A DNA stretch of 36,614 bases from IMG/VR virus record IMGVR_UViG_3300042804_000010. The stretch is one strand, 5' to 3'. Shown here piece by piece: positions 9,417-21,169 of the stretch. A program made the translations under genes and the position numbers. This stretch comes from a virus. Below the pieces are notes generated by a model. The model was not told where the DNA came from and searched no databases. It was given only the letters and a program-made list of their open reading frames with translations. Numbering within the stretch: the stretch's first letter is position 1; each line of letters begins with the position of its first letter.

Positions 9417-10160
9417 TCACTCCTTAAATCTATCCCAGTCTTCTATGAAATGGTCTTTCCACTTATAGTCGCAATTATCAGGACTGTCTTTGTTTTTAGC
9501 ATTTTTAGCAGCTGTCTTAAGATCGTCAATATCTTCAATGCCTTTTTGGGTCCAATCGTTCAATACTGCTCGACAATATGCCAGGGGTTTATCTTTTTCG
9601 ACTGAAATCTTGCAGGCTTTCAAAATTACTGCCTCTGACATTTGCTGCAGGTAGTTTTCGAACTTATCCACATTTTCTTCAAAGAAAATTTTGAATTTCT
9701 TTTTCTTATTTTCATTATTTTTCATTATTAAATCATTATTAACATTATTGTTTGTGTGTTTTTGATGTGTTTTTGATGTGTTTTGGTTATGCTTTTGATA
9801 TGTTTTTGCGTCGTTTTTACAATTATCTAAACCTTGATAATCGCTATAATTTAGCACCTTAACGACCGTCTTTTTAGTGTCGCTTTTATAACTTATCATT
9901 TCTTGATTGGTCAAAAGTTTTAGAAAGTTTTTAACTTTTGTATTTGACCAACCCCAGCGATCACAAAGTTTTCTAATTGAAGTTATCATTTCCCCTGGCT
10001 CGACCTTTACAACTTCATTCCCCAGCAGAACTTCATTTTCTTTATGATTAACCGAAAGCAGTATATCTATCCAAGCTTGACCTTTCGCAAAAGGTTTATC
10101 CTGCCAGAGAATATTATTCTGCATTTTTCTATGAAGAGAAATCCATCCTTGAGCTCCCAC
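9417..10160 (-). CDS. Replication protein (phage replisome organiser / DnaD-like)
   Basis: N-terminus GWISLHRKMQNNILWQDKPFAKGQAWIDILL...; C-terminus ...AYCRAVLNDWTQKGIEDIDDL resembles a DnaD-type domain; central low-complexity linker is encoded by the iteron-like repeats. Confidence 0.55.
   Translation of the reverse strand: MGAQGWISLHRKMQNNILWQDKPFAKGQAWIDILLSVNHKENEVLLGNEVVKVEPGEMITSIRKLCDRWGWSNTKVKNFLKLLTNQEMISYKSDTKKTVVKVLNYSDYQGLDNCKNDAKTYQKHNQNTSKTHQKHTNNNVNNDLIMKNNENKKKKFKIFFEENVDKFENYLQQMSEAVILKACKISVEKDKPLAYCRAVLNDWTQKGIEDIDDLKTAAKNAKNKDSPDNCDYKWKDHFIEDWDRFKE
9756..9820. repeat. Iteron-like tandem repeats (about 6 copies of an 11-bp unit gtgtttttgat), candidate origin
   Basis: Two perfect tandem copies at 9756-9766 and 9767-9777, followed by degenerate copies gtgttttggtt, atgcttttgat, atgtttttgcg, tcgtttttac; lies inside the linker of the replication gene. 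Confidence 0.55.
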
Positions 10161-10701: not shown

Positions 10702-11065
10702 TAGGCCTTTCCTCCTCTAATAGTTTTGATTTTCTCAACCTCAGATTACTAAATTTAATCTTTTCTTTCTCCAGTATTTCATTTGCCCGCCAGAATGGAT
10801 TATCGTCACTTCTGAAAAAGAAATACATTGTCTGACCTAATTCCTTATCAAAATAAATGGCCTCGTAAAGTTCCATATTTGCCTCTTTCTCGTCAATCTT
10901 CTTTTCGATAGCCTTTTGTACCTTAATCTCAATCGTCTGCTCGTTTGATACGAGATTATCCAAATATTCGTCGGCTGTTAAGACAGTTCCGACCGCAATT
11001 CCAATAGAAAAGACCATGATGAAAAAACTGAATGCTATTTTTTTGTTAATTGTCATCATTTCCAT
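10691..11065 (-). CDS. Membrane-anchored hypothetical protein
   Basis: N-terminal hydrophobic segment IAFSFFIMVFSIGIAVGTVL followed by a charged domain. Confidence 0.45.
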   Translation of the reverse strand: MEMMTINKKIAFSFFIMVFSIGIAVGTVLTADEYLDNLVSNEQTIEIKVQKAIEKKIDEKEANMELYEAIYFDKELGQTMYFFFRSDDNPFWRANEILEKEKIKFSNLRLRKSKLLEEERPNEN

Positions 11066-11265
11066 CGCTCCAGGTTGTTAATGTTTTTAAATTCTGATAT
11101 ATTATAGTTAGATGTTTTTTCTTGATCAGCTGTTCCTGCAGCTGGTCTTTTTATTTCTCTATACATTTCTTTGATATCCTTCCATAATTCCGGGCCAGCT
11201 TTAAATATAATGAATAACCAGCCAATGAACATGAATAATCTTGCTATAAAGTCTAAGTTTTGCAT
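11056..11265 (-). CDS. Small membrane protein (69 aa)
   Basis: N-terminal hydrophobic helix FIARLFMFIGWLFIIF. Confidence 0.4.
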   Translation of the reverse strand: MQNLDFIARLFMFIGWLFIIFKAGPELWKDIKEMYREIKRPAAGTADQEKTSNYNISEFKNINNLERWK

Positions 11266-11552
11266 TATTTCACTCTCCTAACTTTCTTGAATGGTTTCTT
11301 CTCATTAACATTATTTCCATACCACCAGACGAAAAATGTTTCTTTCGGAATCCTCCAGCCAAAACCTTTGATTTTCTTAGCCCCTGGAATGTCTCCTCGA
11401 TTGAGTGCTTCATAAGTTCTGGCCTGCGAAGTATTCATAATTTCCATAATGTCTGCCGGCTTGAGTGCCGAAGGATAATCGTCTATCTTTTCGTTGATTC
11501 GTTCGTCTAATACTGATTTGACTGCTGATTGAACATTAATTGTTAAGCTCAT
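11265..11552 (-). CDS. Helix-turn-helix DNA-binding protein (excisionase/AlpA-type HTH)
   Basis: 95-aa ORF with ...PADIMEIMNTSQARTYEALNRGDIPGAKKIKGFGWRIPKETF..., a winged-helix pattern. Confidence 0.5.
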   Translation of the reverse strand: MSLTINVQSAVKSVLDERINEKIDDYPSALKPADIMEIMNTSQARTYEALNRGDIPGAKKIKGFGWRIPKETFFVWWYGNNVNEKKPFKKVRRVK

Positions 11553-11564
11553 TGGTTTACCTCC

Positions 11565-12341
11565 TTATTTAAGATACTGAACATTATAATTTCCTCTCTC
11601 AGTCTCAACTCTTTCTGGCTTACCTTTGATAGTTAGCCAACCTCTGACCTTTTCCATTACTGATGGATAATACTGTTCTTGAGAGTATTGATGACTGCCA
11701 TTACTGCCCATTGTGGTCTCAATTTCGTTAGGTTTAAGGTCTAGATCATTAATTATTGCTCCGATTGCCTGATGATGCGGATTGCCAGAGTTACTATAAA
11801 CACCAATTCTTTTTGCTATATCGGTGCAAGTTAATAGATTATCTGGCAACTGCACATGAAAAGGTAGATTAATTCCAGCTTCTTCATATATACTTTTAAT
11901 CGCTGTCATTTTAGATGAAGCGCTTAATTGCAATTCTTCCATCAAGGGCATTAACATTTTTGTAGACTCTAAAGCGAATTGTTTGCCATCAACCGATTGA
12001 TTATTTTGAGCTATACCTCTTGCTCGCTTTTCCACTTCAATAAAGTATTTTCTTATTTTTCTACCTTGCCGATTTCTCTCAACCATTCCAAGTTCTTTCC
12101 CCATATCCAAACTTAAAACATATTCTTTAGGAGGCCTGCCACCTGAACTTTCCCCCAAAAATGTGGAAAAGTCTATTCCTTTTTCAAATCCATAATCAGA
12201 TACTCTTTGACTAATCCAAGTTGAAAAATCTCTTTCGACACCCAAATAGTCATGTAATTCTCTAGCATTCACAACTTTTTCGCCTTCATCGGTTAAATAA
12301 ACTGGAATTAATTTGTTTTCTAAGATTTTTAGAGCATTCAT
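11565..12341 (-). CDS. Phage antirepressor (AntA-domain)
   Basis: N-terminus ...VVNARELHDYLGVERDFSTWISQRVSDYGFEKGIDF matches the AntA-type antirepressor pattern; second gene of the leftward early operon after cro. Confidence 0.65.
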   Translation of the reverse strand: MNALKILENKLIPVYLTDEGEKVVNARELHDYLGVERDFSTWISQRVSDYGFEKGIDFSTFLGESSGGRPPKEYVLSLDMGKELGMVERNRQGRKIRKYFIEVEKRARGIAQNNQSVDGKQFALESTKMLMPLMEELQLSASSKMTAIKSIYEEAGINLPFHVQLPDNLLTCTDIAKRIGVYSNSGNPHHQAIGAIINDLDLKPNEIETTMGSNGSHQYSQEQYYPSVMEKVRGWLTIKGKPERVETERGNYNVQYLK

Positions 12342-12369
12342 TTTACCCCTCCTAATAATTTTGTGTGAT

Positions 12370-12582
12370 TTAGCTGTACTCTATTTCTAAAAAAAGACGA
12401 CTGATCGGAATTTGCAACTCATCAGAAACTTTCCTGAGCGTTTCAATAGATGGGTTACTATCTCCTCTTTCTATCGCTGCTATAGTTGAATGTGCTAACC
12501 CTATCCGGCGTGCCAACTCTCGCTGGCTCCATTCTAAATCTTCTCTATATTTTTTTATAGCCAGCCCGATGTGTTTATCCAT
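12370..12582 (-). CDS. Cro-like XRE-family HTH regulator
   Basis: 70-aa ORF ...WSQRELARRIGLAHSTIAAIERGDSNPSIETLRKV...; divergent from the cI-like gene. Confidence 0.75.
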   Translation of the reverse strand: MDKHIGLAIKKYREDLEWSQRELARRIGLAHSTIAAIERGDSNPSIETLRKVSDELQIPISRLFLEIEYS

Positions 12583-12650
12583 TTTATCACCTCCAAAAAT
12601 CTCGGAATAATCTCTAAAAATTCTCGAAAAATAGCTCTAACTTGTTTATC

Positions 12651-12679
12651 ATTGTATTTTATAACTGCACAAAAATCAA
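12651..12679 (-). promoter_or_regulatory. Candidate leftward early promoter (TTGATT-17-TACAAT on minus strand)
   Basis: Plus-strand aatcaa at 12674-12679 and attgta at 12651-12656 are the reverse complements of the -35 and -10 boxes, 17 bp apart, upstream of the cro-like gene. Confidence 0.45.
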
Positions 12680-12773
12680 GCAAAATATTTCCTTTCTAAA
12701 GCATTTAAGACTTATCAGATTAAATTAACTAATTATTATTAACTTATACTGCTTTATACTCGTACACTCATAC

Positions 12774-12802
12774 TTTACAAAATAATACATTAATATTATA
12801 AT
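12774..12802 (+). promoter_or_regulatory. Candidate repressor promoter (TTTACA-17-TATAAT)
   Basis: -35 at 12774-12779, -10 at 12797-12802, 17-bp spacer; about 45 bp upstream of the cI-like ATG (12846), which is preceded by RBS AAAGGGGGGA. Confidence 0.5.
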
Positions 12803-12845
12803 ATAAGTGTACAGTATTTAAAACACAAAAAAAGGGGGGATTTAG

Positions 12846-13490
12846 ATGACATTAGGTGAAAAGATTAGAGAACTAAGGACAAAAAAGGGCTATTCTCTTC
12901 GAAAATTGTCGAAAATAGTTGGTTCTGCTTCTCACTCCTATATTGCCGCTATAGAACGTGGCGAAAATAACCCATCATTAAACATATTGTCAGATATCGC
13001 AAATGTTCTTGGAGTATCAACAGCTTATTTATTGGACATTTATGATAAAGAAAAGTCTGGAAATGAAAAGTTTAAGATTGATGAACATTCAGGGGAGATT
13101 TCAAAAGAGGAGATGATTAGTGTGCCGATTGTCGGAGATGTAGCAGCAGGTGAACCAATACTCGCAGACGAACATATAGAAGGATATAGACAAATGCCCG
13201 CAAAAGACATCAATGGGGAATGTTTTTTGCTCAAAATTAAAGGCGATAGCATGATCAATGCAGGGATTCATGAAAACGATTTGGTATTAATCAGACAGCA
13301 GGCAAAAGTTGAGACCGGAGATATTGCAGCTGTAATGATTGATAATGAAAATGCGACATTAAAAAGAGTTTATTTTCATGACAATTCAGTTTTGCTGCAG
13401 TCTGAAAACTTGAAATATAAGCCGATGAATATTAATAATGAAAGAGTTAAAATTATTGGTAAAGCAATAGAAGTTATTCACAAACTATAA
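12846..13490 (+). CDS. CI-like repressor (N-terminal XRE HTH plus C-terminal S24/LexA-like peptidase domain)
   Basis: N-terminus LRKLSKIVGSASHSYIAAIERGENNPSLNIL; C-terminus ...PIVGDVAAGEPILA...KGDSMINAGI...KRVY with Ser/Lys dyad spacing typical of autocleaving repressors. Confidence 0.8.
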   Translation: MTLGEKIRELRTKKGYSLRKLSKIVGSASHSYIAAIERGENNPSLNILSDIANVLGVSTAYLLDIYDKEKSGNEKFKIDEHSGEISKEEMISVPIVGDVAAGEPILADEHIEGYRQMPAKDINGECFLLKIKGDSMINAGIHENDLVLIRQQAKVETGDIAAVMIDNENATLKRVYFHDNSVLLQSENLKYKPMNINNERVKIIGKAIEVIHKL

Positions 13491-13502
13491 AGGAGGAGAA
13501 TT

Positions 13503-14192
13503 ATGAAGAAAATTTTAATTGTTTTTTTAATTTTATTTATTTTATCTAGCTCAGCAACTGCGGCTAGAAACTGGGAGAAGCAATATACATTAGATAATTT
13601 ATTTATTGATTCTACAGCAAACGGCGAACTTTGGGAAACAATAGATAAAGCTGACCGAATAAATACAGCTTTAGTTTACAATAAAGTAAAAATAGGCCAG
13701 CCGCTATTAATTTCTTATTCAAGGTATGGTGCAAATGCAGAAATCAGCGAGTATTACAAAAATGAAGAATTTATAAAAGAAAACCAGCGATTTTATCCTA
13801 CGGGTTCATATTTGAAAATGGTGTACATGGGGCAAGACGCACAAAATAATATTAGATTAAAGGTTTATGATCATTATTATGGCAACGAAAAGAAACTTTA
13901 TAAAAGAATCAATTCGCTAATTGAAGAAGATTATCCCTCAGAGGAAGATAAAGAGGGAATGCTTGAGAGAACCGGCATTGAAAGTGAAAAAAAGTTGAAA
14001 GAGGTTATAGTTAAGATAATCACTTTAGATAGTGATTATTATTATTTTGACTTAGACACCGATTCAGCCCCTTATGATGATTTTCAATTATCTTCTAATA
14101 AAATTTTAAAATTTTGGGATGAATCAATACCACCGATCAAGATTAAAACAAATATGATAGACTCAACAATAAAAGTTGAAATAGTCAACTAG
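13503..14192 (+). CDS. Secreted protein with signal peptide (candidate lysogenic-conversion/exclusion factor)
   Basis: N-terminus MKKILIVFLILFILSSSATAA is a signal-peptide-like segment; sits between the repressor and integrase; RBS AGGAGGAG. Confidence 0.55.
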   Translation: MKKILIVFLILFILSSSATAARNWEKQYTLDNLFIDSTANGELWETIDKADRINTALVYNKVKIGQPLLISYSRYGANAEISEYYKNEEFIKENQRFYPTGSYLKMVYMGQDAQNNIRLKVYDHYYGNEKKLYKRINSLIEEDYPSEEDKEGMLERTGIESEKKLKEVIVKIITLDSDYYYFDLDTDSAPYDDFQLSSNKILKFWDESIPPIKIKTNMIDSTIKVEIVN

Positions 14193-14209
14193 AAAGGAAG
14201 GTTAAATTT

Positions 14210-14476
14210 ATGACAGATGTAATTATAGCGATACTTTGGTTTGTCGCAGGAGGGAATTGGTTATTATCAGCCGTAGTTTTTTATTTAGCTTTCAATGGAA
14301 TGCATTCAATGGCCCTTGCGGGTTCTAATTACGGCTTATTTGGAGCCTTTCAAGGCATAGCTCTTGGGGTTGCGCTTATTATAGTCGGCACTATTTTTGG
14401 AGCTGTGGCAGTTTTAATTTCAGAAGTTCGTGATTCAAAACAATTATTACAAAATATAATCAAAGAAGGTGATTAA
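14210..14476 (+). CDS. Small integral membrane protein (2-3 TM helices)
   Basis: 88 aa, Gly/Ala-rich hydrophobic segments (IIAILWFVAGGNWLLSAVVFYLAF; GIALGVALIIVGTIFGAVAVLI); stop abuts the integrase start. Confidence 0.5.
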   Translation: MTDVIIAILWFVAGGNWLLSAVVFYLAFNGMHSMALAGSNYGLFGAFQGIALGVALIIVGTIFGAVAVLISEVRDSKQLLQNIIKEGD

Positions 14477-15622
14477 ATGCCTCATATTGAAAAAACTGCA
14501 AATGGAAAGTATAAAGCTGTCATTGAAGTTGGCGCCGGCGCCAGGCGAAAAAGAAGAACAAAAACATTCGAAAGAAAAAAAGATGCAAAAAGCTGGCAAG
14601 CTAATATGTTAGTTGATCAAGAAAAAGGCAGATATGTTTCTTCCGCATCATTAACTGTCGGTGATCATATGCTTGACTGGCTGGATAACGAGAAGAAACC
14701 GCACATCGCCACAACTACTTATGATAATTACAAAAACCGTATAAAAACTTATATTATACCCGAAATAGGATATATTCCATTGCAGGAACTGGAGCCCTTC
14801 CATATTAGCCGATTTATGGGCTATTTAAGAAAGAATGGAAGTGTCAGGAATGATGGCGGCCTGTCTGAAAATACTCTCAAGAAAATATATGTAGTGCTTA
14901 ATTCAGCGATGGAAAAGGCAGTCCAGTGGCGGTTAATAAAATATAACCCAGTCCAGGCGATTGAATCACCACAACCGAAAAAGAAAGAAGCTAAGTCAAT
15001 GAGCTTTGAGGAAGTTCAAAAATTACTTGATTCAGTTAACGATAAATTTATGCACACATTTTTGAGTTTTGCTGTCCTTACCGGAATGAGAAAAAGTGAA
15101 ATGCTTGGCCTAGAGTGGTCAGAAGTTGATTTAGAGAATGAAACTGTCGAAGTAAAAAAGCGATTAGTTGTTAATCAAAATAGTGATCAGGGAATTGAGC
15201 ATGAAGAAGCGACAAAGCGAGAAGCCAGCAGAAGAGTGATTGCGATTCCTTCGAAACTGGCAAAAATATTGAAAAATTATAAGGTCCATCAAACAGAATT
15301 AAGGCTGCAGCTGGCGGATGAATATAATGATGAAAAGCAATTTGTTTTCTGTAAGTCTGACGGGAATCCTTATTATCCGTCAACAATTACTAGAAATGCA
15401 AAAAAGGCCATACTCAGAGCTGATTTAAGCTCCGAATACAGCCTTCATACATTGCGCCATACATTCGCTACCTTGCAACTTAAAACCGGGACAGATGCCA
15501 AAACTATACAAGAAATGCTCGGTCATGGGAATATCTCCACTACTATGGATATATACTCTCATGTTGATATTGACATGCAGAAAGAAGCCGCAAAGAAATT
15601 AGAAAATGAGATTGTTATTTAG
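14477..15622 (+). CDS. int: Tyrosine integrase (site-specific recombinase)
   Basis: C-terminal catalytic pattern ...HTLRHTFATLQL...LGHGNISTTMDIYSHV (R...HxxR...Y) and N-terminal SAM-like domain. Confidence 0.85.
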   Translation: MPHIEKTANGKYKAVIEVGAGARRKRRTKTFERKKDAKSWQANMLVDQEKGRYVSSASLTVGDHMLDWLDNEKKPHIATTTYDNYKNRIKTYIIPEIGYIPLQELEPFHISRFMGYLRKNGSVRNDGGLSENTLKKIYVVLNSAMEKAVQWRLIKYNPVQAIESPQPKKKEAKSMSFEEVQKLLDSVNDKFMHTFLSFAVLTGMRKSEMLGLEWSEVDLENETVEVKKRLVVNQNSDQGIEHEEATKREASRRVIAIPSKLAKILKNYKVHQTELRLQLADEYNDEKQFVFCKSDGNPYYPSTITRNAKKAILRADLSSEYSLHTLRHTFATLQLKTGTDAKTIQEMLGHGNISTTMDIYSHVDIDMQKEAAKKLENEIVI

Positions 15623-15646
15623 ACCCCTATTCGGGGTCTTTTTTAT
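15622..15646 (+). terminator. Rho-independent terminator after int
   Basis: gacccc-tattc-ggggtc hairpin immediately followed by ttttttt, overlapping the int stop codon. Confidence 0.7.
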
Positions 15647-15678
15647 TTATTATTTTTTAAAAAAGATTGATAAAACTC

Positions 15679-15707
15679 TTGACAGTACCACGCTATCGTG
15701 GTATAAT
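15679..15707 (+). promoter_or_regulatory. Near-consensus sigma70-type promoter (TTGACA-17-TATAAT) with a palindrome in the spacer
   Basis: TTGACA at 15679-15684, TATAAT at 15702-15707; the 17-bp spacer contains ccacg-ctat-cgtgg (5-bp inverted arms); followed by RBS AAAGGAGGA and ATG 15754. Confidence 0.65.
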
Positions 15708-15753
15708 TAAGTTGTAATAAAGAAAGGGAACAAAAATCAAAGGAGGAAAGATA

Positions 15754-16083
15754 ATGAAAAAACAAAAAAGAGTTGTTGGTGAAGTTTATATAGCAATAGG
15801 CAGAAATACACAGAAAGTTGTAGCGGTCGGGGAAAAGAATACTTATGAAAATAAAGAAAAATTAAAAGAGGCTGGTTACAAGTGGGATGCAAGCCAAAAA
15901 GAATGGATAAAAGAAGTTAAAATTGATATGACAGATATAGACCCAAAAAGTAAAGAAGACAATTTAAAAGTAGCAAAAAGAGCAGTTGAAATTTTAAGAG
16001 AACTACAAAAACCAGAATTTATTAACTTAATTGCCGATGAGCAAAGAACAAAAAAGATTATAGAATTTGCTGACAATCACTAA
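15754..16083 (+). CDS. Hypothetical protein (109 aa), first gene of post-int cassette
   Basis: ORF with strong RBS directly downstream of the consensus promoter; no recognisable family. Confidence 0.5.
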   Translation: MKKQKRVVGEVYIAIGRNTQKVVAVGEKNTYENKEKLKEAGYKWDASQKEWIKEVKIDMTDIDPKSKEDNLKVAKRAVEILRELQKPEFINLIADEQRTKKIIEFADNH

Positions 16084-16132
16084 TAAATTTTAGCTCTGCC
16101 GGTGGCTTAATAACCGGCAAAGGAGGATAAAA

Positions 16133-16507
16133 ATGATTATCAAATTAATTTTAGAACAATTCAAAAGCATTGAGCGGAATTATCAAGGTTCAGAAAATTA
16201 TCATCAAAATGAGATTGTGAAGGTTGTTGACCCAGATAGTGAATTTTATGGAGCAACAGGAAAATACAAAGGGTTAAAAGAAAGAAAAATACCACAAGAT
16301 ATTTACGAAGTTGAAATTATATCTTACCTCTGGAAAGTTATGACTTTCAAAGAGGCTTCAGAAAAATATGATGTGGCAGTATCAACATTAAGACATAGAG
16401 CCTCAGACGGAAGATTCGAAGATGGTGATATTAGGAAGTCGGGCAAAACTTGGTTAGTCACAAAATCAGCAATGGACCGGATATACGGAGGTGCAAAAAA
16501 TGACTGA
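16133..16507 (+). CDS. HTH-containing protein (possible excisionase-like DNA-binding domain)
   Basis: RBS AAAGGAGGA; C-terminal ...MTFKEASEKYDVAVSTLRHRASDGRFEDGDIRKSGKTWLV resembles excisionase/MerR-type HTH; lies between int and the candidate attP. Confidence 0.45.
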   Translation: MIIKLILEQFKSIERNYQGSENYHQNEIVKVVDPDSEFYGATGKYKGLKERKIPQDIYEVEIISYLWKVMTFKEASEKYDVAVSTLRHRASDGRFEDGDIRKSGKTWLVTKSAMDRIYGGAKND

Positions 16508-18237: not shown

Positions 18238-19332
18238 CTATATGCTTTTTAATTTTAGCCGGTCGCCTAAATCCAATTGCTCCAGTATATGATCATCTAG
18301 TTTGTTTATCACTGACATTTTTAAATTATAACTATCGCAATGTTTAATTATTCCCAAGTAGGAATTAACACTGGCATTAATATCCTCGATATCCACCTTC
18401 CCTTCAAAATATTTTTTATTAAGATATTTAAATCGCTTTTTCATTTTCTTTTTAGTACTTTTCCTCAATTTGCTATAACTCGGATATAGAACATATCCGC
18501 AAAAATCTATTCCTTCATTCACATGTCCAACAGTAGTTTTATTATTAAGCTGCAGCTGGAGATAATCTTCTAAAAATATTTCTATTTCCTGTCTGATTGT
18601 ATGAAGCTTCTTTTTATCTTTTCCCAAAAGTACAAAGTCATCCATATACCGGACATAGTATTTTACTTTCAAGGTGTGCTTTACAAACTTATCTAAAAAA
18701 TCAAGATAAATATTTGCAAAAAGCTGGCTCATTAAGTTGCCGATTGGTGTGCCAATCCCTTTAACTTTTTTATTTTCAAAGAAGTGATCACCTAACTGGA
18801 TACCAAACTCACCATCTTCACTTTTGATTATCTGCCAGATTAATTCCAATGTATCTCTGCAGCTAATTTTCCTTTTTATTAACTGAAATAATCTTTTATG
18901 AACTATCCTGTAAAAATATTTTGAAACGTCTGCTTTTAAAAAATATGTTTTTCCGGGCTTTCGGTCCATTATCCTTAACTTGTCCTGTAATTGATATGCA
19001 GTGAAATGAGTACCCTTTCCTCTGCGACAAGCCCCGCTATATCTGTAAAATGCCTTATCAAATATCGGGTAAAGCTTTCGATATATGCTCCACTGGACCA
19101 CTCTGTCTTTAAAAGGCAAAGCCATGATCAGTCTTTTCTTTGGCTCATAGACATAAAACTGCCTGTATTTTCCCTGTTCATATGTTTTCCACATTAATTC
19201 ATTCTGTATCTCAATTAAATTTCTCTCTAAATTATAATTAAATTTCAGCACTTCCGGTTTGTATCTTTTCCTCTTTTGAGCTTTTTGAGTTGCTATTTCT
19301 AAATTATGATAATCAGTAATTTTCTCAAACAA
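18238..19332 (-). CDS. Diversity-generating retroelement reverse transcriptase
   Basis: RT motifs FYVYEPKKRLIMALPFKDRVVQ, GTHFTAY, IGTPIGNLMSQLFANIYL (DGR-type SQ in place of the usual QGxxxSP), YVRYMDDFVLLG (YxDD); about 360 aa, as for Bordetella phage Brt; apparent TTG start at 19332. Confidence 0.9.
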   Translation of the reverse strand: MFEKITDYHNLEIATQKAQKRKRYKPEVLKFNYNLERNLIEIQNELMWKTYEQGKYRQFYVYEPKKRLIMALPFKDRVVQWSIYRKLYPIFDKAFYRYSGACRRGKGTHFTAYQLQDKLRIMDRKPGKTYFLKADVSKYFYRIVHKRLFQLIKRKISCRDTLELIWQIIKSEDGEFGIQLGDHFFENKKVKGIGTPIGNLMSQLFANIYLDFLDKFVKHTLKVKYYVRYMDDFVLLGKDKKKLHTIRQEIEIFLEDYLQLQLNNKTTVGHVNEGIDFCGYVLYPSYSKLRKSTKKKMKKRFKYLNKKYFEGKVDIEDINASVNSYLGIIKHCDSYNLKMSVINKLDDHILEQLDLGDRLKLKSI

Positions 19333-19586
19333 ATTTTTGACTGTCTTAGGAATAAATAATCACCACTCTCTATATATTAGGTGAAATATTCAAGCCCGCT
19401 CAAATGAGAACGGGCTCATAACTAATCGTGACAGCTTTCGATATTTCGCTACTTGCTATCTAATTAGTAATTCATATGTTTTCCTGGAGGGACCTCAAAA
19501 TGTATCTCAGGAAGGACTAAAGGCCTGTTCATCTTTTTGAACACTGCAGCAGAGGCCTTGACCCCATACTGTCTGATAAATTTGTA

Positions 19587-19703
19587 GATGAGCACAGGCG
19601 CCACGCACGCCAATGTTAGTGTTCACGTTCCACGGGTTATTGTTCGAGTTGACCGTCCGAGCACCGCAGATGCTACCATTGTTGAAGTTGCCACCGGCGA
19701 GGA
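19587..19703 (-). repeat. DGR template repeat (TR), 117 bp
   Basis: 102 of 117 positions identical to VR (20143-20259); all 15 differences are at TR adenines on the coding strand; carries 11 AAY codons in the VR frame. Confidence 0.9.
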
Positions 19704-19727
19704 CCAACGCCCTTAGCCCTATAAAAT

Positions 19728-20081
19728 TTATTTTTTATTTTCACAAGACTTAATCCAGCCACCCAGAAGGCGGCCAATTTCGTCTATTTTTTTGACTACA
19801 ATTTCATGTTTTCTTATAGATAAAAAATGCATATCTTTAGCAAGTCTAATTTTAACTTTTAGCTTTTTAAGTTCATCATCTATCCGGTTTAAAAATCTTA
19901 TCTTACTTCCTCGAGCTTCATTTGCATCTATTATCAATTCCATAATTCTATCTAATTTATTTTTGATTTTTGTACACATTGCAAACTTTTCTCTTTTTGG
20001 AAAATTATCAATTACTGGGTAAAAATAAAGAGTAAAGTCATAATGTTTTCTAAATATCACGAGATCATCTGTGTCTGCCAA
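19728..20081 (-). CDS. avd: DGR accessory variability determinant (Avd)
   Basis: 117-aa basic helical protein located between the target gene and TR, as in canonical DGRs; TTG start preceded by AAGGAG with a 7-nt spacer. Confidence 0.75.
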   Translation of the reverse strand: MADTDDLVIFRKHYDFTLYFYPVIDNFPKREKFAMCTKIKNKLDRIMELIIDANEARGSKIRFLNRIDDELKKLKVKIRLAKDMHFLSIRKHEIVVKKIDEIGRLLGGWIKSCENKK

Positions 20082-20131
20082 ATCATCACTCCTTCAAGTT
20101 CTAAACCTAACCAAAAACCATTATCAGATTA

Positions 20132-21169
20132 TCAGGCACTCTGATGAGCACAGGCGCCACGCACGCCAACGCTAGTGTTCACGTCCCACGGGCGAAAGTC
20201 CGAGCTGACCGTCCGAGCACCGCAGAGGCCACCACTGCTGAAGCCGCCACCGGCGAGGAGGCCAATAATAGCCACATTATTTTGCATGTAAGCTTCACCA
20301 TGCTGATAACCGCTGTCTTTACCTGCATTAAGCACATCATACCAACTGAATGAAGTTGAGCCAGTATTTCTATAAGTATACTCGTCTAATCTTTCCCAAA
20401 GGTTACCAGCGCAATCTACAAGGTTATAGCAAGAAACTGCTTGTTCTACAGTTCCAGTTGAAGTTCGACCTGAATTACTTGAACTAGACCAAGCGGCATT
20501 ATTATCATTTTCGTGGCCTTCTGGGCTACCATAGGCAGCCATTAACCATTCCTGCCTGGTTAATTTTCTTTTGTTGACATTTGCAAGACCCCTAATGAAA
20601 TCATAATCATTATAACCCTCAGTTCCTGAGACCGGGGTCGCATTGTATTCACTCACAAGTTCAGTTTCCGGCCAGGTTCCGCTGCCTTCACTTGCAATAT
20701 ATATATCAGCCCAAAAGTTTGATACCTTGACCATTCCAGTAGGGTCACAGGCAGGTCTGTAGTTCAATGACCAGACTGAGTTTGGCAGTATATTAACTGC
20801 AATTGAGGCTGTATCATCATATCTTTGAGCGTTTGTTCTGATGCGGCCATAATGAAAACCACCAATTTTTCTGCTATTATTTTCTGTATACCCGTCTGGA
20901 TAAGTAGAGTTGATAGAAATAACAAAATCGGGCTCTGCATCAGCTGATGGCTGCAAAGCATATATATAATAGTTTTCGCCAAGCGTGAAACTTACAAAAC
21001 TGCCGTCGCTATCAGCTTCAGTCAAAATAGTATCAGTTTCTTTTTTGAGATTCTGTCTATCAATTCTCAAAGCTAATGGAGGTACTGTAACTTCATCAGC
21101 TGCACTCTTTTCAATATGGCCTTTGAAATTGTAGAATGAAGGTGAATCAGCTCCAACAAAAGTTAACAT
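20132..21169 (-). CDS. DGR target protein: distal tail/receptor-binding protein with C-terminal C-type-lectin/FGE-like fold carrying the VR
   Basis: C-terminal ...SCYNLVDCAGNLWERLDEY...LLAGGGFSSGGLCGARTVSSDFRPWDVNTSVGVRGACAHQSA; VR occupies the last about 39 codons; last gene of the tail module. Confidence 0.85.
   Translation of the reverse strand: MLTFVGADSPSFYNFKGHIEKSAADEVTVPPLALRIDRQNLKKETDTILTEADSDGSFVSFTLGENYYIYALQPSADAEPDFVISINSTYPDGYTENNSRKIGGFHYGRIRTNAQRYDDTASIAVNILPNSVWSLNYRPACDPTGMVKVSNFWADIYIASEGSGTWPETELVSEYNATPVSGTEGYNDYDFIRGLANVNKRKLTRQEWLMAAYGSPEGHENDNNAAWSSSSNSGRTSTGTVEQAVSCYNLVDCAGNLWERLDEYTYRNTGSTSFSWYDVLNAGKDSGYQHGEAYMQNNVAIIGLLAGGGFSSGGLCGARTVSSDFRPWDVNTSVGVRGACAHQSA
20143..20259 (-). 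repeat. DGR variable repeat (VR), 117 bp, at the 3' end of the target gene
   Basis: Aligns to TR 19587-19703; the coding-strand 3' end is a GC-rich invariant segment ggcgtgcgtggcgcctgtgctcatc (IMH-like). Confidence 0.9.

What the first reader, a model, noticed from the sequence alone, without database searches (positions are those of the whole stretch)
12583..12845. Genetic switch region with divergent promoters and inverted operator-like motifs
The 263-bp AT-rich interval between the cro-like and cI-like genes holds a leftward TTGATT-17-TACAAT and a rightward TTTACA-17-TATAAT promoter. atactcgtacact (12756-12768) and its near reverse complement agtgtacagtat (12806-12817) bracket the rightward promoter. 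Three ATACT repeats (12747-12775) overlap its -35 box.
Basis: seen in the sequence. Interest (0 to 1): 0.55.

Follow-up and report, generated by a model that had tools for sequence, protein, structure and literature searches.

The report
Phage cI/Cro lysis-lysogeny switch region
This 263-bp gap is the control region of a temperate phage's lysis/lysogeny switch, with two back-to-back promoters and about three repressor-binding-like sites, which makes it a real but ordinary, lambda-type arrangement in an uncultured phage.

Summary
Window 12583-12845 is a 24%-GC intergenic region. It lies between a 70-aa Cro-like HTH gene (leftward) and a 214-aa cI-like gene (rightward; HTH_3 plus LexA-type S24 peptidase with Ala101-Gly102, Ser135, Lys173).

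In eight to nine independent relatives (cI 56-78% identical), the invariant intergenic columns include exactly these: the two -10 boxes, the two -35 boxes, and TGTAC at the cI transcription start. They mark two of three related sites with a TGTACA-like core:
- O_A, 12761-12773, abutting the cI promoter -35.
- O_B, 12801-12813, over its -10/+1.
- O_C, 12659-12671, inside the spacer of the lytic (cro) promoter.

The site spacing is fixed across lineages (95-96 and 47-48 bp). A second subgroup has different recognition helices in both cI and Cro. It carries a different sequence at O_C and O_A in the same register.

The most likely mechanism is a lambda/phi11-type bistable switch with SOS-cleavable cI. 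Which protein binds which site is inferred, not shown.

Verdict: new member of a known kind, low-to-moderate interest. An 11-bp repeat array in the cro leader remains unexplained. A diversity-generating retroelement was found elsewhere in the window.

The parts
12370..12582 (-). cro-like gene (70 aa, single HTH_3 domain). First gene of the leftward early/lytic operon.
   Evidence: Pfam HTH_3 E 6.7e-18. phrog_8 transcriptional regulator. 38% identical to the cI N-terminal domain over 61 aa (E 2e-11), with a near-identical recognition helix: HSTIAAIERGD against HSYIAAIERGE.
12846..13490 (+). cI-like repressor (214 aa). N-terminal HTH_3 plus C-terminal LexA-type S24 self-cleaving domain.
   Evidence: Pfam HTH_3 E 5e-14 and Peptidase_S24 E 2.6e-31. 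phrog_4 E 7e-41. The C-terminal domain aligns to solved LexA structures (3k2z E 2e-21). G102, S135 and K173 are invariant and A101 is retained in the window and in most aligned relatives.
12651..12679 (-). Leftward (lytic, cro) promoter: -35 TTGATT (12679..12674), 17-nt spacer, -10 TACAAT (12656..12651). Inferred start near 12644.
   Evidence: ATTGTAT (the -10) and CAA (the TTG of the -35) are invariant columns in the 8-lineage alignment. The start site was not measured.
12774..12802 (+). Rightward (cI / maintenance-type) promoter: -35 TTTACA, 17-nt spacer, -10 TATAAT. Inferred start about 12809-12811.
   Evidence: 11/12 consensus match, the best in 11500-14500. TTACA and TA.AAT are invariant in 8 lineages.
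12801..12817 (.). O_B: operator-like site over the -10/+1 of the cI promoter. Core TGTACA is 12808-12813. The minus strand reads ATACTGTACACTTATAT.
   Evidence: TGTAC is invariant in all 8 aligned lineages. The exact 10-mer ATACTGTACA lies upstream of cI in most close relatives. It is the top hit of 73,204 positions for a weight matrix trained only on relatives. It shows the strongest position-independent conservation in the region.
12756..12773 (.). O_A: operator-like site abutting the -35 of the cI promoter. Core CGTACA is 12761-12766, centred about -45 from the inferred start. The plus strand reads ATACTCGTACACTCATAC.
   Evidence: 10/13 identical to O_B in inverted orientation. A TGTACA-like core sits at offset -13 from the -35 in all four group-1 lineages. 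It is a weaker match, ranking 57th of 73,204. Group-2 relatives carry TATACGAWTATAC in the same register.
12659..12671 (.). O_C: operator-like site inside the spacer of the lytic promoter. The plus strand reads TTATAACTGCACA and the core TGCACA is 12666-12671.
   Evidence: 10/12 direct match to O_B. Second-best hit in the whole window for the relatives-only weight matrix. It holds the same spacer position in L090, L091 and L104. In group 2 the same register holds GTATATCCGTAT, the inverted partner of that group's O_A.
12680..12755 (.). AT-rich spacer (21% GC) between the two promoters. Its sequence is poorly conserved but its length is fixed. It contains a weak extra ATACTG word at 12746-12751.
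   Evidence: The distance from the leftward -10 to the rightward -35 is 124-125 bp in the lineages measured and 135 bp (+10) in L105. Core-to-core distances are O_C to O_A 95-96 bp and O_A to O_B 47-48 bp. GC content.
12591..12640 (-). About four tandem 11-bp units in the cro 5' leader. In mRNA sense each unit is AWTTTTTCGAG, and the last unit is the real Shine-Dalgarno (ATTTTTGGAGG). Function unknown.
   Evidence: TRF period 11, 3.9 copies, score 42. Relatives L085-L089 (cI 99% identical) lack exactly one unit. L090 has three clean TCTCGAA units. The array is absent from all other lineages. No RNA structure is predicted (z = 0.66). The motif is not enriched elsewhere in the window.
11565..12341 (-). 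AntA-type antirepressor gene immediately downstream of cro. An accessory part of the switch.
   Evidence: Pfam AntA E 2.4e-24. phrog_5817 anti-repressor Ant E 1e-40. An Ant/Bro-N/ORF6N gene holds the same position in most of the relatives whose contigs reach that far.

Best explanation
The interval is the immunity (lysis/lysogeny) switch of a temperate, siphovirus-like phage of an uncultured low-GC Bacillota host.

Two sigma-A-type promoters fire back to back. The rightward one (12774-12802) makes cI, two small lysogeny-operon proteins and integrase. The leftward one (12679-12651) makes Cro, an antirepressor, and the replication and late genes.

- O_C lies in the spacer of the lytic promoter. 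A repressor bound there blocks RNA polymerase and maintains lysogeny.
- O_A abuts the -35 of the cI promoter at about -45. This position suits positive autoregulation and/or cooperative pairing with O_C across a fixed 95-bp AT-rich spacer of about nine helical turns.
- O_B covers the cI -10/+1. Occupancy there shuts off cI synthesis, either by Cro after infection or induction, or by excess cI.

cI and Cro have near-identical recognition helices, so they most likely compete for the same sites, as in lambda. cI carries the LexA-type Ala-Gly / Ser / Lys self-cleavage apparatus, so DNA damage (RecA*) should inactivate it. The Ant protein gives a second route.

Shown: gene identities, promoter and site sequences, and their conservation, spacing and co-variation. 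Inferred: which protein binds which site, activation, looping, start sites and SOS induction.
For: - Domains and context.
- Promoters. Their hexamers are invariant columns in 8 lineages at 59% mean column identity.
- Unbiased k-mer enrichment over 9 independent intergenic regions: apart from RBS and promoter words, the top words are TGTACA (10 observed against 0.7 expected, in 8 of 9 lineages), GTACAG, GTACAC, TACTCG and ATACTG.
- A weight matrix built only from sites in L090, L091 and L104 ranks O_B first and O_C second of 73,204 positions in the 36.6-kb window. O_A ranks 57th.
- TGTACA-like cores sit at offsets about -108, -13 and +34 from the cI -35 in group-1 lineages. Spacing is 95-96 and 47-48 bp.
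- Promoter-to-promoter distance is 124-125 bp, or exactly +10 bp in L105.
- Co-variation: relatives whose cI and Cro helices both differ (ISASYLSDIENDR and ISHTLLSDIE) carry TATACGRATATAC instead of YGTACACTYATAC at O_A. They carry its inverted copy at O_C in the same register, 10-11 of 12 matches within the lineage.
- cI and Cro helices are alike within each phage.
- The Ser and Lys catalytic residues and Gly102 are invariant across 11 homologues.
- The inverted repeat around the cI promoter is reached by 6 of 500 shuffles in a gapped test.
Against: - No binding, footprint or transcription-start data exist.
- Within the window alone the ungapped inverted repeat is not significant.
- O_C cores in L090 (CGAACA) and L104 (TGACCA) have two mismatches to TGTACA. 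Per-site identity at O_C and O_A (7-10 of 13) is only modestly above the local background.
- The training sites for the weight matrix were chosen by eye.
- O_B keeps TGTACA even in group 2, where O_C and O_A have changed. O_B may therefore answer to a different constraint than the other two sites.
- A 6-bp palindromic core is short for an HTH dimer, so the true site boundaries are uncertain.
- The relatives are homologous sequences, not independent draws.
Confidence: 0.72

Rival explanations
1. Phi11-type division of labour. cI binds only O_C and O_A, cooperatively and in helical phase across the 95-104-bp spacer. Cro binds only O_B at the cI start site. The switch still toggles, but the two repressors do not compete for shared sites.
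For: - In group-2 relatives there are two distinct motif classes: TATACGRATATAC at O_C and O_A, and ATACTGTACA at O_B and at a site near -37.
- The O_C/O_A pair is in helical phase: 104 bp apart, and 114 bp in L105, which has a 10-bp insertion.
- Phi11 has three 15-bp operators between divergent cI and cro. Its CI binds O1 and O2 only, and its Cro binds O3 only, next to cI (PMC3991615).
Against: In the window itself all three sites share one motif, with O_B matching O_C at 10/12 to 10/13 and O_A at 10/13 depending on register. The cI and Cro recognition helices are nearly identical, which argues for overlapping specificity.
Confidence: 0.25
2. O_B (TGTAC at +1 plus the conserved AGTATTTAAAAC that follows) is not an operator. 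It would instead be a conserved initiation or leader element of the cI transcript, or the target of a factor shared by all lineages, such as a host protein.
For: - TGTAC at this position is invariant in all 8 aligned lineages, including the subgroup whose cI and Cro helices and O_C/O_A sequences have changed.
- Conservation extends 12-14 nt into the leader in the window, L090 and L091.
Against: - The same core recurs at O_A and O_C, and at a fourth site in L091 and L102, outside any transcript start.
- The leader has no predicted structure and no Rfam match.
- The flank carrying ATAC flips side between the groups, as expected for half of a palindromic protein site (ATACTGT|ACAGTAT) rather than for an RNA element.
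Confidence: 0.12
3. TP901-1/phi13-type switch. The small HTH protein would be a MOR-like antirepressor that acts by binding CI rather than DNA, with operators OR, OL and OD.
For: The arrangement is the same: divergent cI and a small HTH gene with three CI sites (PMC8516035, PMC7250872).
Against: - cI here has a LexA-type S24 domain, unlike the C-terminal oligomerisation domains (CTD1/CTD2) described for TP901-1 CI.
- The TP901-1/phi13 half-site AGTTCAYR is absent from the region. There is one 1-mismatch hit, at chance level.
- The Cro-like helix co-varies with the cI helix and with the DNA sites.
Confidence: 0.04
4. The TGTACA/ATACT similarities are coincidences of AT-rich promoter DNA. The true operators would be other sequences, for example the 11-bp TCTCGAA repeats downstream of the lytic promoter acting as a roadblock.
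For: - The ungapped inverted repeat is not significant within the window.
- Many chance inverted repeats occur in this 24%-GC region.
- The 11-bp repeats have near-helical periodicity and lie between the lytic promoter and cro.
Against: - Cross-lineage enrichment, fixed positions and helix/site co-variation all favour the TGTACA sites.
- The 11-bp repeats exist only in the window, L085-L089 and L090, although L091 and L104 share the same cI helix.
Confidence: 0.06

Closest known systems
Bacteriophage lambda immunity region (cI - OR1/OR2/OR3 - cro, promoters PRM and PR)
   Same: - Divergent cI and cro genes.
- cI combines an HTH domain with a LexA-like self-cleaving domain carrying the Ala-Gly / Ser / Lys motifs.
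- Three related operator-like sites overlap two divergent promoters.
- cI and Cro carry similar recognition helices, implying shared sites.
- One site sits at about -45 from the maintenance promoter, like OR2 at about -42 (the lambda position is from general knowledge, not tested here).
   Different: - The promoters are about 95 bp apart (-35 to -35) rather than overlapping within about 80 bp.
- The sites are dispersed (95 and 47 bp apart) rather than adjacent (about 24 bp).
- The core motif is unrelated to lambda's 17-bp operators.
- No second (OL-like) operator cluster was found in the 36.6-kb window.
- The repressor proteins are only distantly related.
Staphylococcus aureus phage phi11 cI-cro switch (O1, O2, O3)
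   Same: - A Gram-positive phage with divergent cI and cro.
- Three homologous short operators in the intergenic region that partly overlap the promoters, with one next to cro and one next to cI (PMC3991615).
- Staphylococcal phage repressors are among the tblastn hits for this cI, at about 30% identity.
   Different: In phi11, CI binds only O1 and O2 and Cro binds only O3. Whether that split applies here is unknown. The operator sequences are not related to each other.
Lactococcus phage TP901-1 / S. aureus phi13 CI-MOR switch
   Same: A compact switch with divergent promoters, a small HTH partner gene and three CI operators (PMC8516035, PMC7250872).
   Different: Here cI has an S24 peptidase domain, the AGTTCAYR half-sites are absent, and no downstream OD-type site was identified.
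Repressors of thermophilic Bacillaceae phages (deep-sea thermophilic phage D6E, Geobacillus phage vB_GthS_PK5.2)
   Same: These are the closest repressors among isolated phages: 36-40% identity over the full length, with the same HTH_3 + S24 architecture.
   Different: They are too distant for their intergenic regions to be compared. No close relative exists in the 50,697-record phage collection at the DNA level.

Membership tests
Lambda-type cI/Cro immunity switch | Divergently transcribed repressor and cro genes separated by a short regulatory region | tested here: met
   ORFs 12370-12582 (-) and 12846-13490 (+) lie 263 bp apart. The same arrangement occurs in all relatives whose contigs reach upstream of cI.
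Lambda-type cI/Cro immunity switch | Repressor with an N-terminal HTH and a C-terminal LexA/S24 self-cleavage domain (Ala-Gly site, Ser nucleophile, Lys base) | tested here: met
   HTH_3 and Peptidase_S24. The C-terminal domain aligns to LexA structures. A101-G102, S135 and K173 are present, and G102, S135 and K173 are invariant in 11 homologues. Cleavage itself was not tested.
Lambda-type cI/Cro immunity switch | Two divergent sigma-70/sigma-A promoters within the intergenic region | tested here: met
   Consensus matches of 11/12 and 9/12. All four hexamers are conserved in 8 lineages. Start sites were not measured.
Lambda-type cI/Cro immunity switch | Multiple related operator sites that overlap the promoters | tested here: met
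   Three TGTACA-core sites lie at the lytic-promoter spacer, at the cI -35 flank and at the cI -10/+1. This is supported at sequence level only.
Lambda-type cI/Cro immunity switch | Both cI and Cro bind the same operators with opposite affinity order | not testable with these tools
   There is only indirect support. The recognition helices are near-identical within each phage, and they co-vary between subgroups.
Lambda-type cI/Cro immunity switch | Adjacent operators (about 2 turns apart) with pairwise cooperativity, plus a distant OL cluster for octamer looping | tested here: not met
   The sites are 95 and 47 bp apart. No second cluster of sites exists in the 36.6-kb window. The next-best weight-matrix hits are isolated and lie inside genes.
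Phi11-type switch | Three homologous operators; CI binds two of them and Cro binds only the one next to cI | not testable with these tools
   The architecture is compatible. The two motif classes in group-2 relatives hint at this split. Protein-DNA assays are needed.
TP901-1/phi13 CI-MOR switch | CI without a peptidase domain; operators built from AGTTCAYR half-sites; MOR acts through a CI:MOR complex | tested here: not met
   An S24 domain is present. There is no exact AGTTCAYR in 12583-12845, and matches across the window are at chance level.
Host-LexA-controlled phage switch (GIL01-like) | Host LexA (Cheo) box CGAAC-N4-GTTCG at the lytic promoter | tested here: not met
   No match with up to 2 mismatches anywhere in the window.

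The most novel reading that the evidence does not exclude
The switch may use a fixed-geometry looped architecture. O_C and O_A would be held about 9-10 helical turns apart across a length-conserved but sequence-free AT-rich spacer. The invariant TGTAC site at the cI start would then be read by a different partner than O_C and O_A. That partner could be Cro alone or a shared host factor. This would explain why the site survives a change of immunity specificity. In addition, the slippage-prone 11-bp repeat array in the cro leader could tune Cro output, and so the lysis/lysogeny set-point, between near-identical phages.
Probability: 0.12. Interest if true: 0.5.

Novelty: new member of a known kind. 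Interest (0 to 1): 0.27.

Why it matters
This gives a concrete, testable operator and promoter map for the immunity region of an uncultured Bacillota phage lineage known only from metagenomes. It includes the site most likely to hold the lytic promoter off. The two subgroups differ in both repressor helices and in operator sequence at the same positions. They are a natural example of how immunity specificity diverges while switch geometry stays fixed. It does not change how such switches are understood.

Tried and rejected
- **Close relatives in curated collections.** blastn against 50,697 phage records found only antirepressor-gene matches at 66-73% identity and nothing for the switch. tblastn with cI reached at most 40% identity. 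Scans of genome contigs, viral contigs and metagenome contigs returned only distant HTH or LexA-domain relatives (at most 51% identity, over partial matches), which were useless for footprinting. Useful relatives came only from the protein-cluster search plus exact-protein contig look-ups. L190 was cut 35 bp upstream of cI.\n- **Further motif copies.** ATACTGTACACT and ATACTNGTACACT with up to 2 mismatches gave nothing beyond chance. The next weight-matrix hits, at 19970 and 13032, lie inside genes and are taken as chance.\n- **RNA explanations.** No Rfam family reached its gathering score in 11000-16500; the only hit up to E=1 was a sub-threshold sbrA match outside the interval. Neither leader has significant structure.\n- **Host LexA box.** None found.\n- **TP901-1 half-sites.** None in the region.\n- **A second leftward promoter-like match.** TTTAAA-16-TATAAT at 12822..12795 scores 10/12. 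It was rejected because its -10 is not conserved in L090 or L091 (sequences).\n- **Literature.** A search for TGTACA phage operators returned nothing relevant.\n- **The 11-bp leader repeat.** It is not enriched elsewhere in the window.

Full report
**1. What is in the sequence**

Window 12583-12845 is a 263-bp intergenic region with 24% GC, against 35% for the whole window.
- To its left, on the minus strand, is a 70-aa single-domain HTH_3 protein (12370-12582).
- To its right, on the plus strand, is a 214-aa protein with HTH_3 and Peptidase_S24 domains (12846-13490).
- The C-terminal half of the 214-aa protein aligns to solved LexA structures (3k2z, E 2e-21).
- It carries the Ala101-Gly102 cleavage site, Ser135 and Lys173. 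Gly102, Ser135 and Lys173 are invariant in 11 homologues.

Genes following cro leftward are:
- an AntA-type antirepressor;
- an HTH_17 protein;
- a DnaD-like loader and an SSB;
- the late genes, after the window wraps around: TerL fragment, portal, major head protein, tape measure and tail.

Following cI rightward are two small genes of unknown function and a tyrosine integrase. The window therefore looks like a complete, circularly permuted temperate phage genome. The interval is its immunity region.

**2. Checking the observation**

The rightward TTTACA-17-TATAAT is the best sigma-70-type match in 11500-14500, at 11/12. The leftward TTGATT-17-TACAAT scores 9/12.

The two 'inverted' motifs are reverse complements only with a 1-nt gap. 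Statistics from this window alone are as follows.
- The ungapped inverted repeat is unremarkable: 113 of 300 shuffles do as well.
- A gapped, information-weighted alignment of the region against its reverse complement selects exactly the imperfect palindrome 12750-12826 that embraces the rightward promoter. Only 6 of 500 shuffles reach its score.
- ATACT words are mildly enriched (4 against 1.3 expected, P about 0.03).
- GTAC words are mildly enriched (2 against 0.23 expected).

**3. Relatives**

Curated phage records and the three contig collections hold no close relative. The protein-cluster search found cI homologues at 99, 78, 65-67 and 55-59% identity. Exact-protein look-ups recovered their contigs. 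All whose contigs reach upstream of cI have the divergent cro/cI arrangement, usually with an antirepressor after cro and an integrase after cI.

An alignment of eight independent intergenic regions has 59% mean column identity. Its invariant columns include the following blocks:
- ATTGTAT, the leftward -10;
- CAA, the TTG of the leftward -35;
- TTACA, the rightward -35;
- TA.AAT, the rightward -10;
- TGTAC, seven bases after the rightward -10.

**4. Operators**

Similar 12-mers within each lineage, and unbiased k-mer enrichment over nine lineages, both point to the same words. The words are TGTACA (10 observed against 0.7 expected, in 8 of 9 lineages), GTACAG, GTACAC, TACTCG and ATACTG. They are the only strongly enriched words that belong to neither a ribosome-binding site nor a promoter.

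In the four lineages that share the window's cI recognition helix (SASHSYI), TGTACA-like cores lie at about -108, -13 and +34 from the start of the cI -35 (in L090 and L104 the -108 core has two mismatches). Core-to-core spacings are 95-96 and 47-48 bp.

In the window the sites, in an ungapped 13-mer register, are:
- O_A, 12761-12773 (+), CGTACACTCATAC;
- O_B, 12801-12813 (-), TGTACACTTATAT;
- O_C, 12659-12671 (-), TGTGCAGTTATAA.

A weight matrix built only from sites in L090, L091 and L104 ranks O_B first and O_C second among all 73,204 positions of the window. O_A ranks 57th. I chose the training sites by eye, so this test is not fully blind.

The exact 10-mer ATACTGTACA lies just upstream of cI in most close relatives. 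The idealised O_B is the 14-bp palindrome ATACTGT|ACAGTAT, of which each lineage keeps the core and one flank.

**5. Co-variation**

The relatives fall into two subgroups by recognition helix.
- Group 1 (window, L090, L091/L097, L104): cI SASHSYIAAIERGE and Cro (L/V)AHSTIAAIERGD.
- Group 2 (L102, L105, L106, L108): cI ISASY(L/I)SDIENDR and Cro ISHT(L/M)L(S/N)DIE.

Two findings follow.
- Within each phage the cI and Cro helices resemble each other. In the window the two domains are 38% identical (E 2e-11).
- At O_A and O_C, in the same register, group 2 carries TATACGRATATAC instead of YGTACACTYATAC. Its two copies are a 10-11/12 inverted pair.

This joint change of helix and site is the best available evidence that O_C and O_A are repressor sites. 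O_B keeps TGTACA in both groups, which is not explained.

**6. Geometry**

The distance from the leftward -10 to the rightward -35 is 124-125 bp in the lineages measured except L105. There it is 135 bp, an insertion of exactly one helical turn. The intervening 76 bp are 21% GC and poorly conserved. This argues for a phasing constraint, such as cooperative binding across a small loop. That is an inference.

**7. Mechanism proposed**

- cI bound at O_C occludes the lytic promoter.
- cI at O_A (about -45) assists its own promoter and/or pairs with O_C.
- O_B at the cI -10/+1 turns cI synthesis off when it is filled by Cro or by excess cI.
- RecA*-stimulated self-cleavage of cI, and the Ant protein, relieve repression.

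The main rival is a phi11-like split, in which cI binds two sites and Cro binds only the one next to cI (PMC3991615). The following were tested and not supported:
- TP901-1-type control;
- host-LexA control;
- RNA-based explanations.

**8. Comparison and verdict**

In function and parts this is a lambda/phi11-type cI/Cro switch. It differs from lambda in several ways:
- the sites are dispersed rather than adjacent;
- the promoters are about 95 bp apart;
- the operator sequence is unrelated;
- no OL-like cluster is detectable.

The closest repressors from isolated phages, D6E and a Geobacillus phage, are only 36-40% identical. It is a new member of a known kind. The finding is correct and was usefully extended here, but it is not surprising.

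Unexplained residue:
- an 11-bp tandem array in the cro leader that varies by one unit between 99%-identical relatives;
- the invariance of O_B across specificity groups.

Noticed in passing
window 18238-21169 (RT 18238-19332 -; TR 19587-19703; 117-aa ORF 19728-20081 -; VR 20143-20259 within tail gene 20132-21169 -): A diversity-generating retroelement. A reverse transcriptase (phrog_1423, E 1e-130) sits next to a 117-nt template/variable repeat pair that is 87% identical. All 15 differences fall at adenines of the template copy. The variable copy lies at the 3' end of a tail protein gene.
   Followed up: yes
window 12591-12640: About four tandem 11-bp units (mRNA sense AWTTTTTCGAG) lie in the cro 5' leader, and the last unit is the true Shine-Dalgarno. 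Relatives with 99%-identical cI lack exactly one unit. L090 has three clean TCTCGAA units. All other lineages lack the array. No RNA structure is predicted and the function is unknown.
   Followed up: partly
window 9700-9818, inside the DnaD-like helicase-loader gene 9417-10160 (-): Two adjacent tandem arrays: 9-10-bp TTTTCATTA units and 5.4 copies of an 11-bp TTTGATGTGTT unit. They are iteron-like and a candidate phage replication origin inside the replication gene.
   Followed up: no
window 13503-14192 (+): A 229-aa protein with a signal-peptide-like N-terminus and no family match sits between cI and an 88-aa membrane-like protein. Relatives with 99%-identical cI lack it entirely; there cI is followed directly by the 86-aa gene and the integrase. 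It is a candidate moron or superinfection-exclusion gene in the lysogeny operon.
   Followed up: partly
L091-L096 (cro ribosome-binding region) and window 12834-12839: Contigs encoding an identical cI differ only in the length of a poly-C tract (5 to 13 C) just upstream of the cro start codon. This could be phase-variable or an assembly artefact. The cI ribosome-binding site is a G-run of 6-9 in the window, L090, L104 and L105.
   Followed up: no
window 15623-16507: An AT-rich gap with TTTTTTA repeats (15639-15659) follows the integrase and is a likely attP region. A 124-aa ORF at 16133-16507 (+) matches excisionase phrog_2655 (E 3e-15). It lies on the lysogeny-module strand rather than in the lytic operon.
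   Followed up: no
window, whole: GTAC is mildly under-represented in the phage genome: 32 sites against 45.8 +/- 6.6 in dinucleotide shuffles. TGTACA occurs only three times, at 12808, 13822 and 19971. One possible reading is restriction avoidance, with retention where the word is functional.
   Followed up: partly
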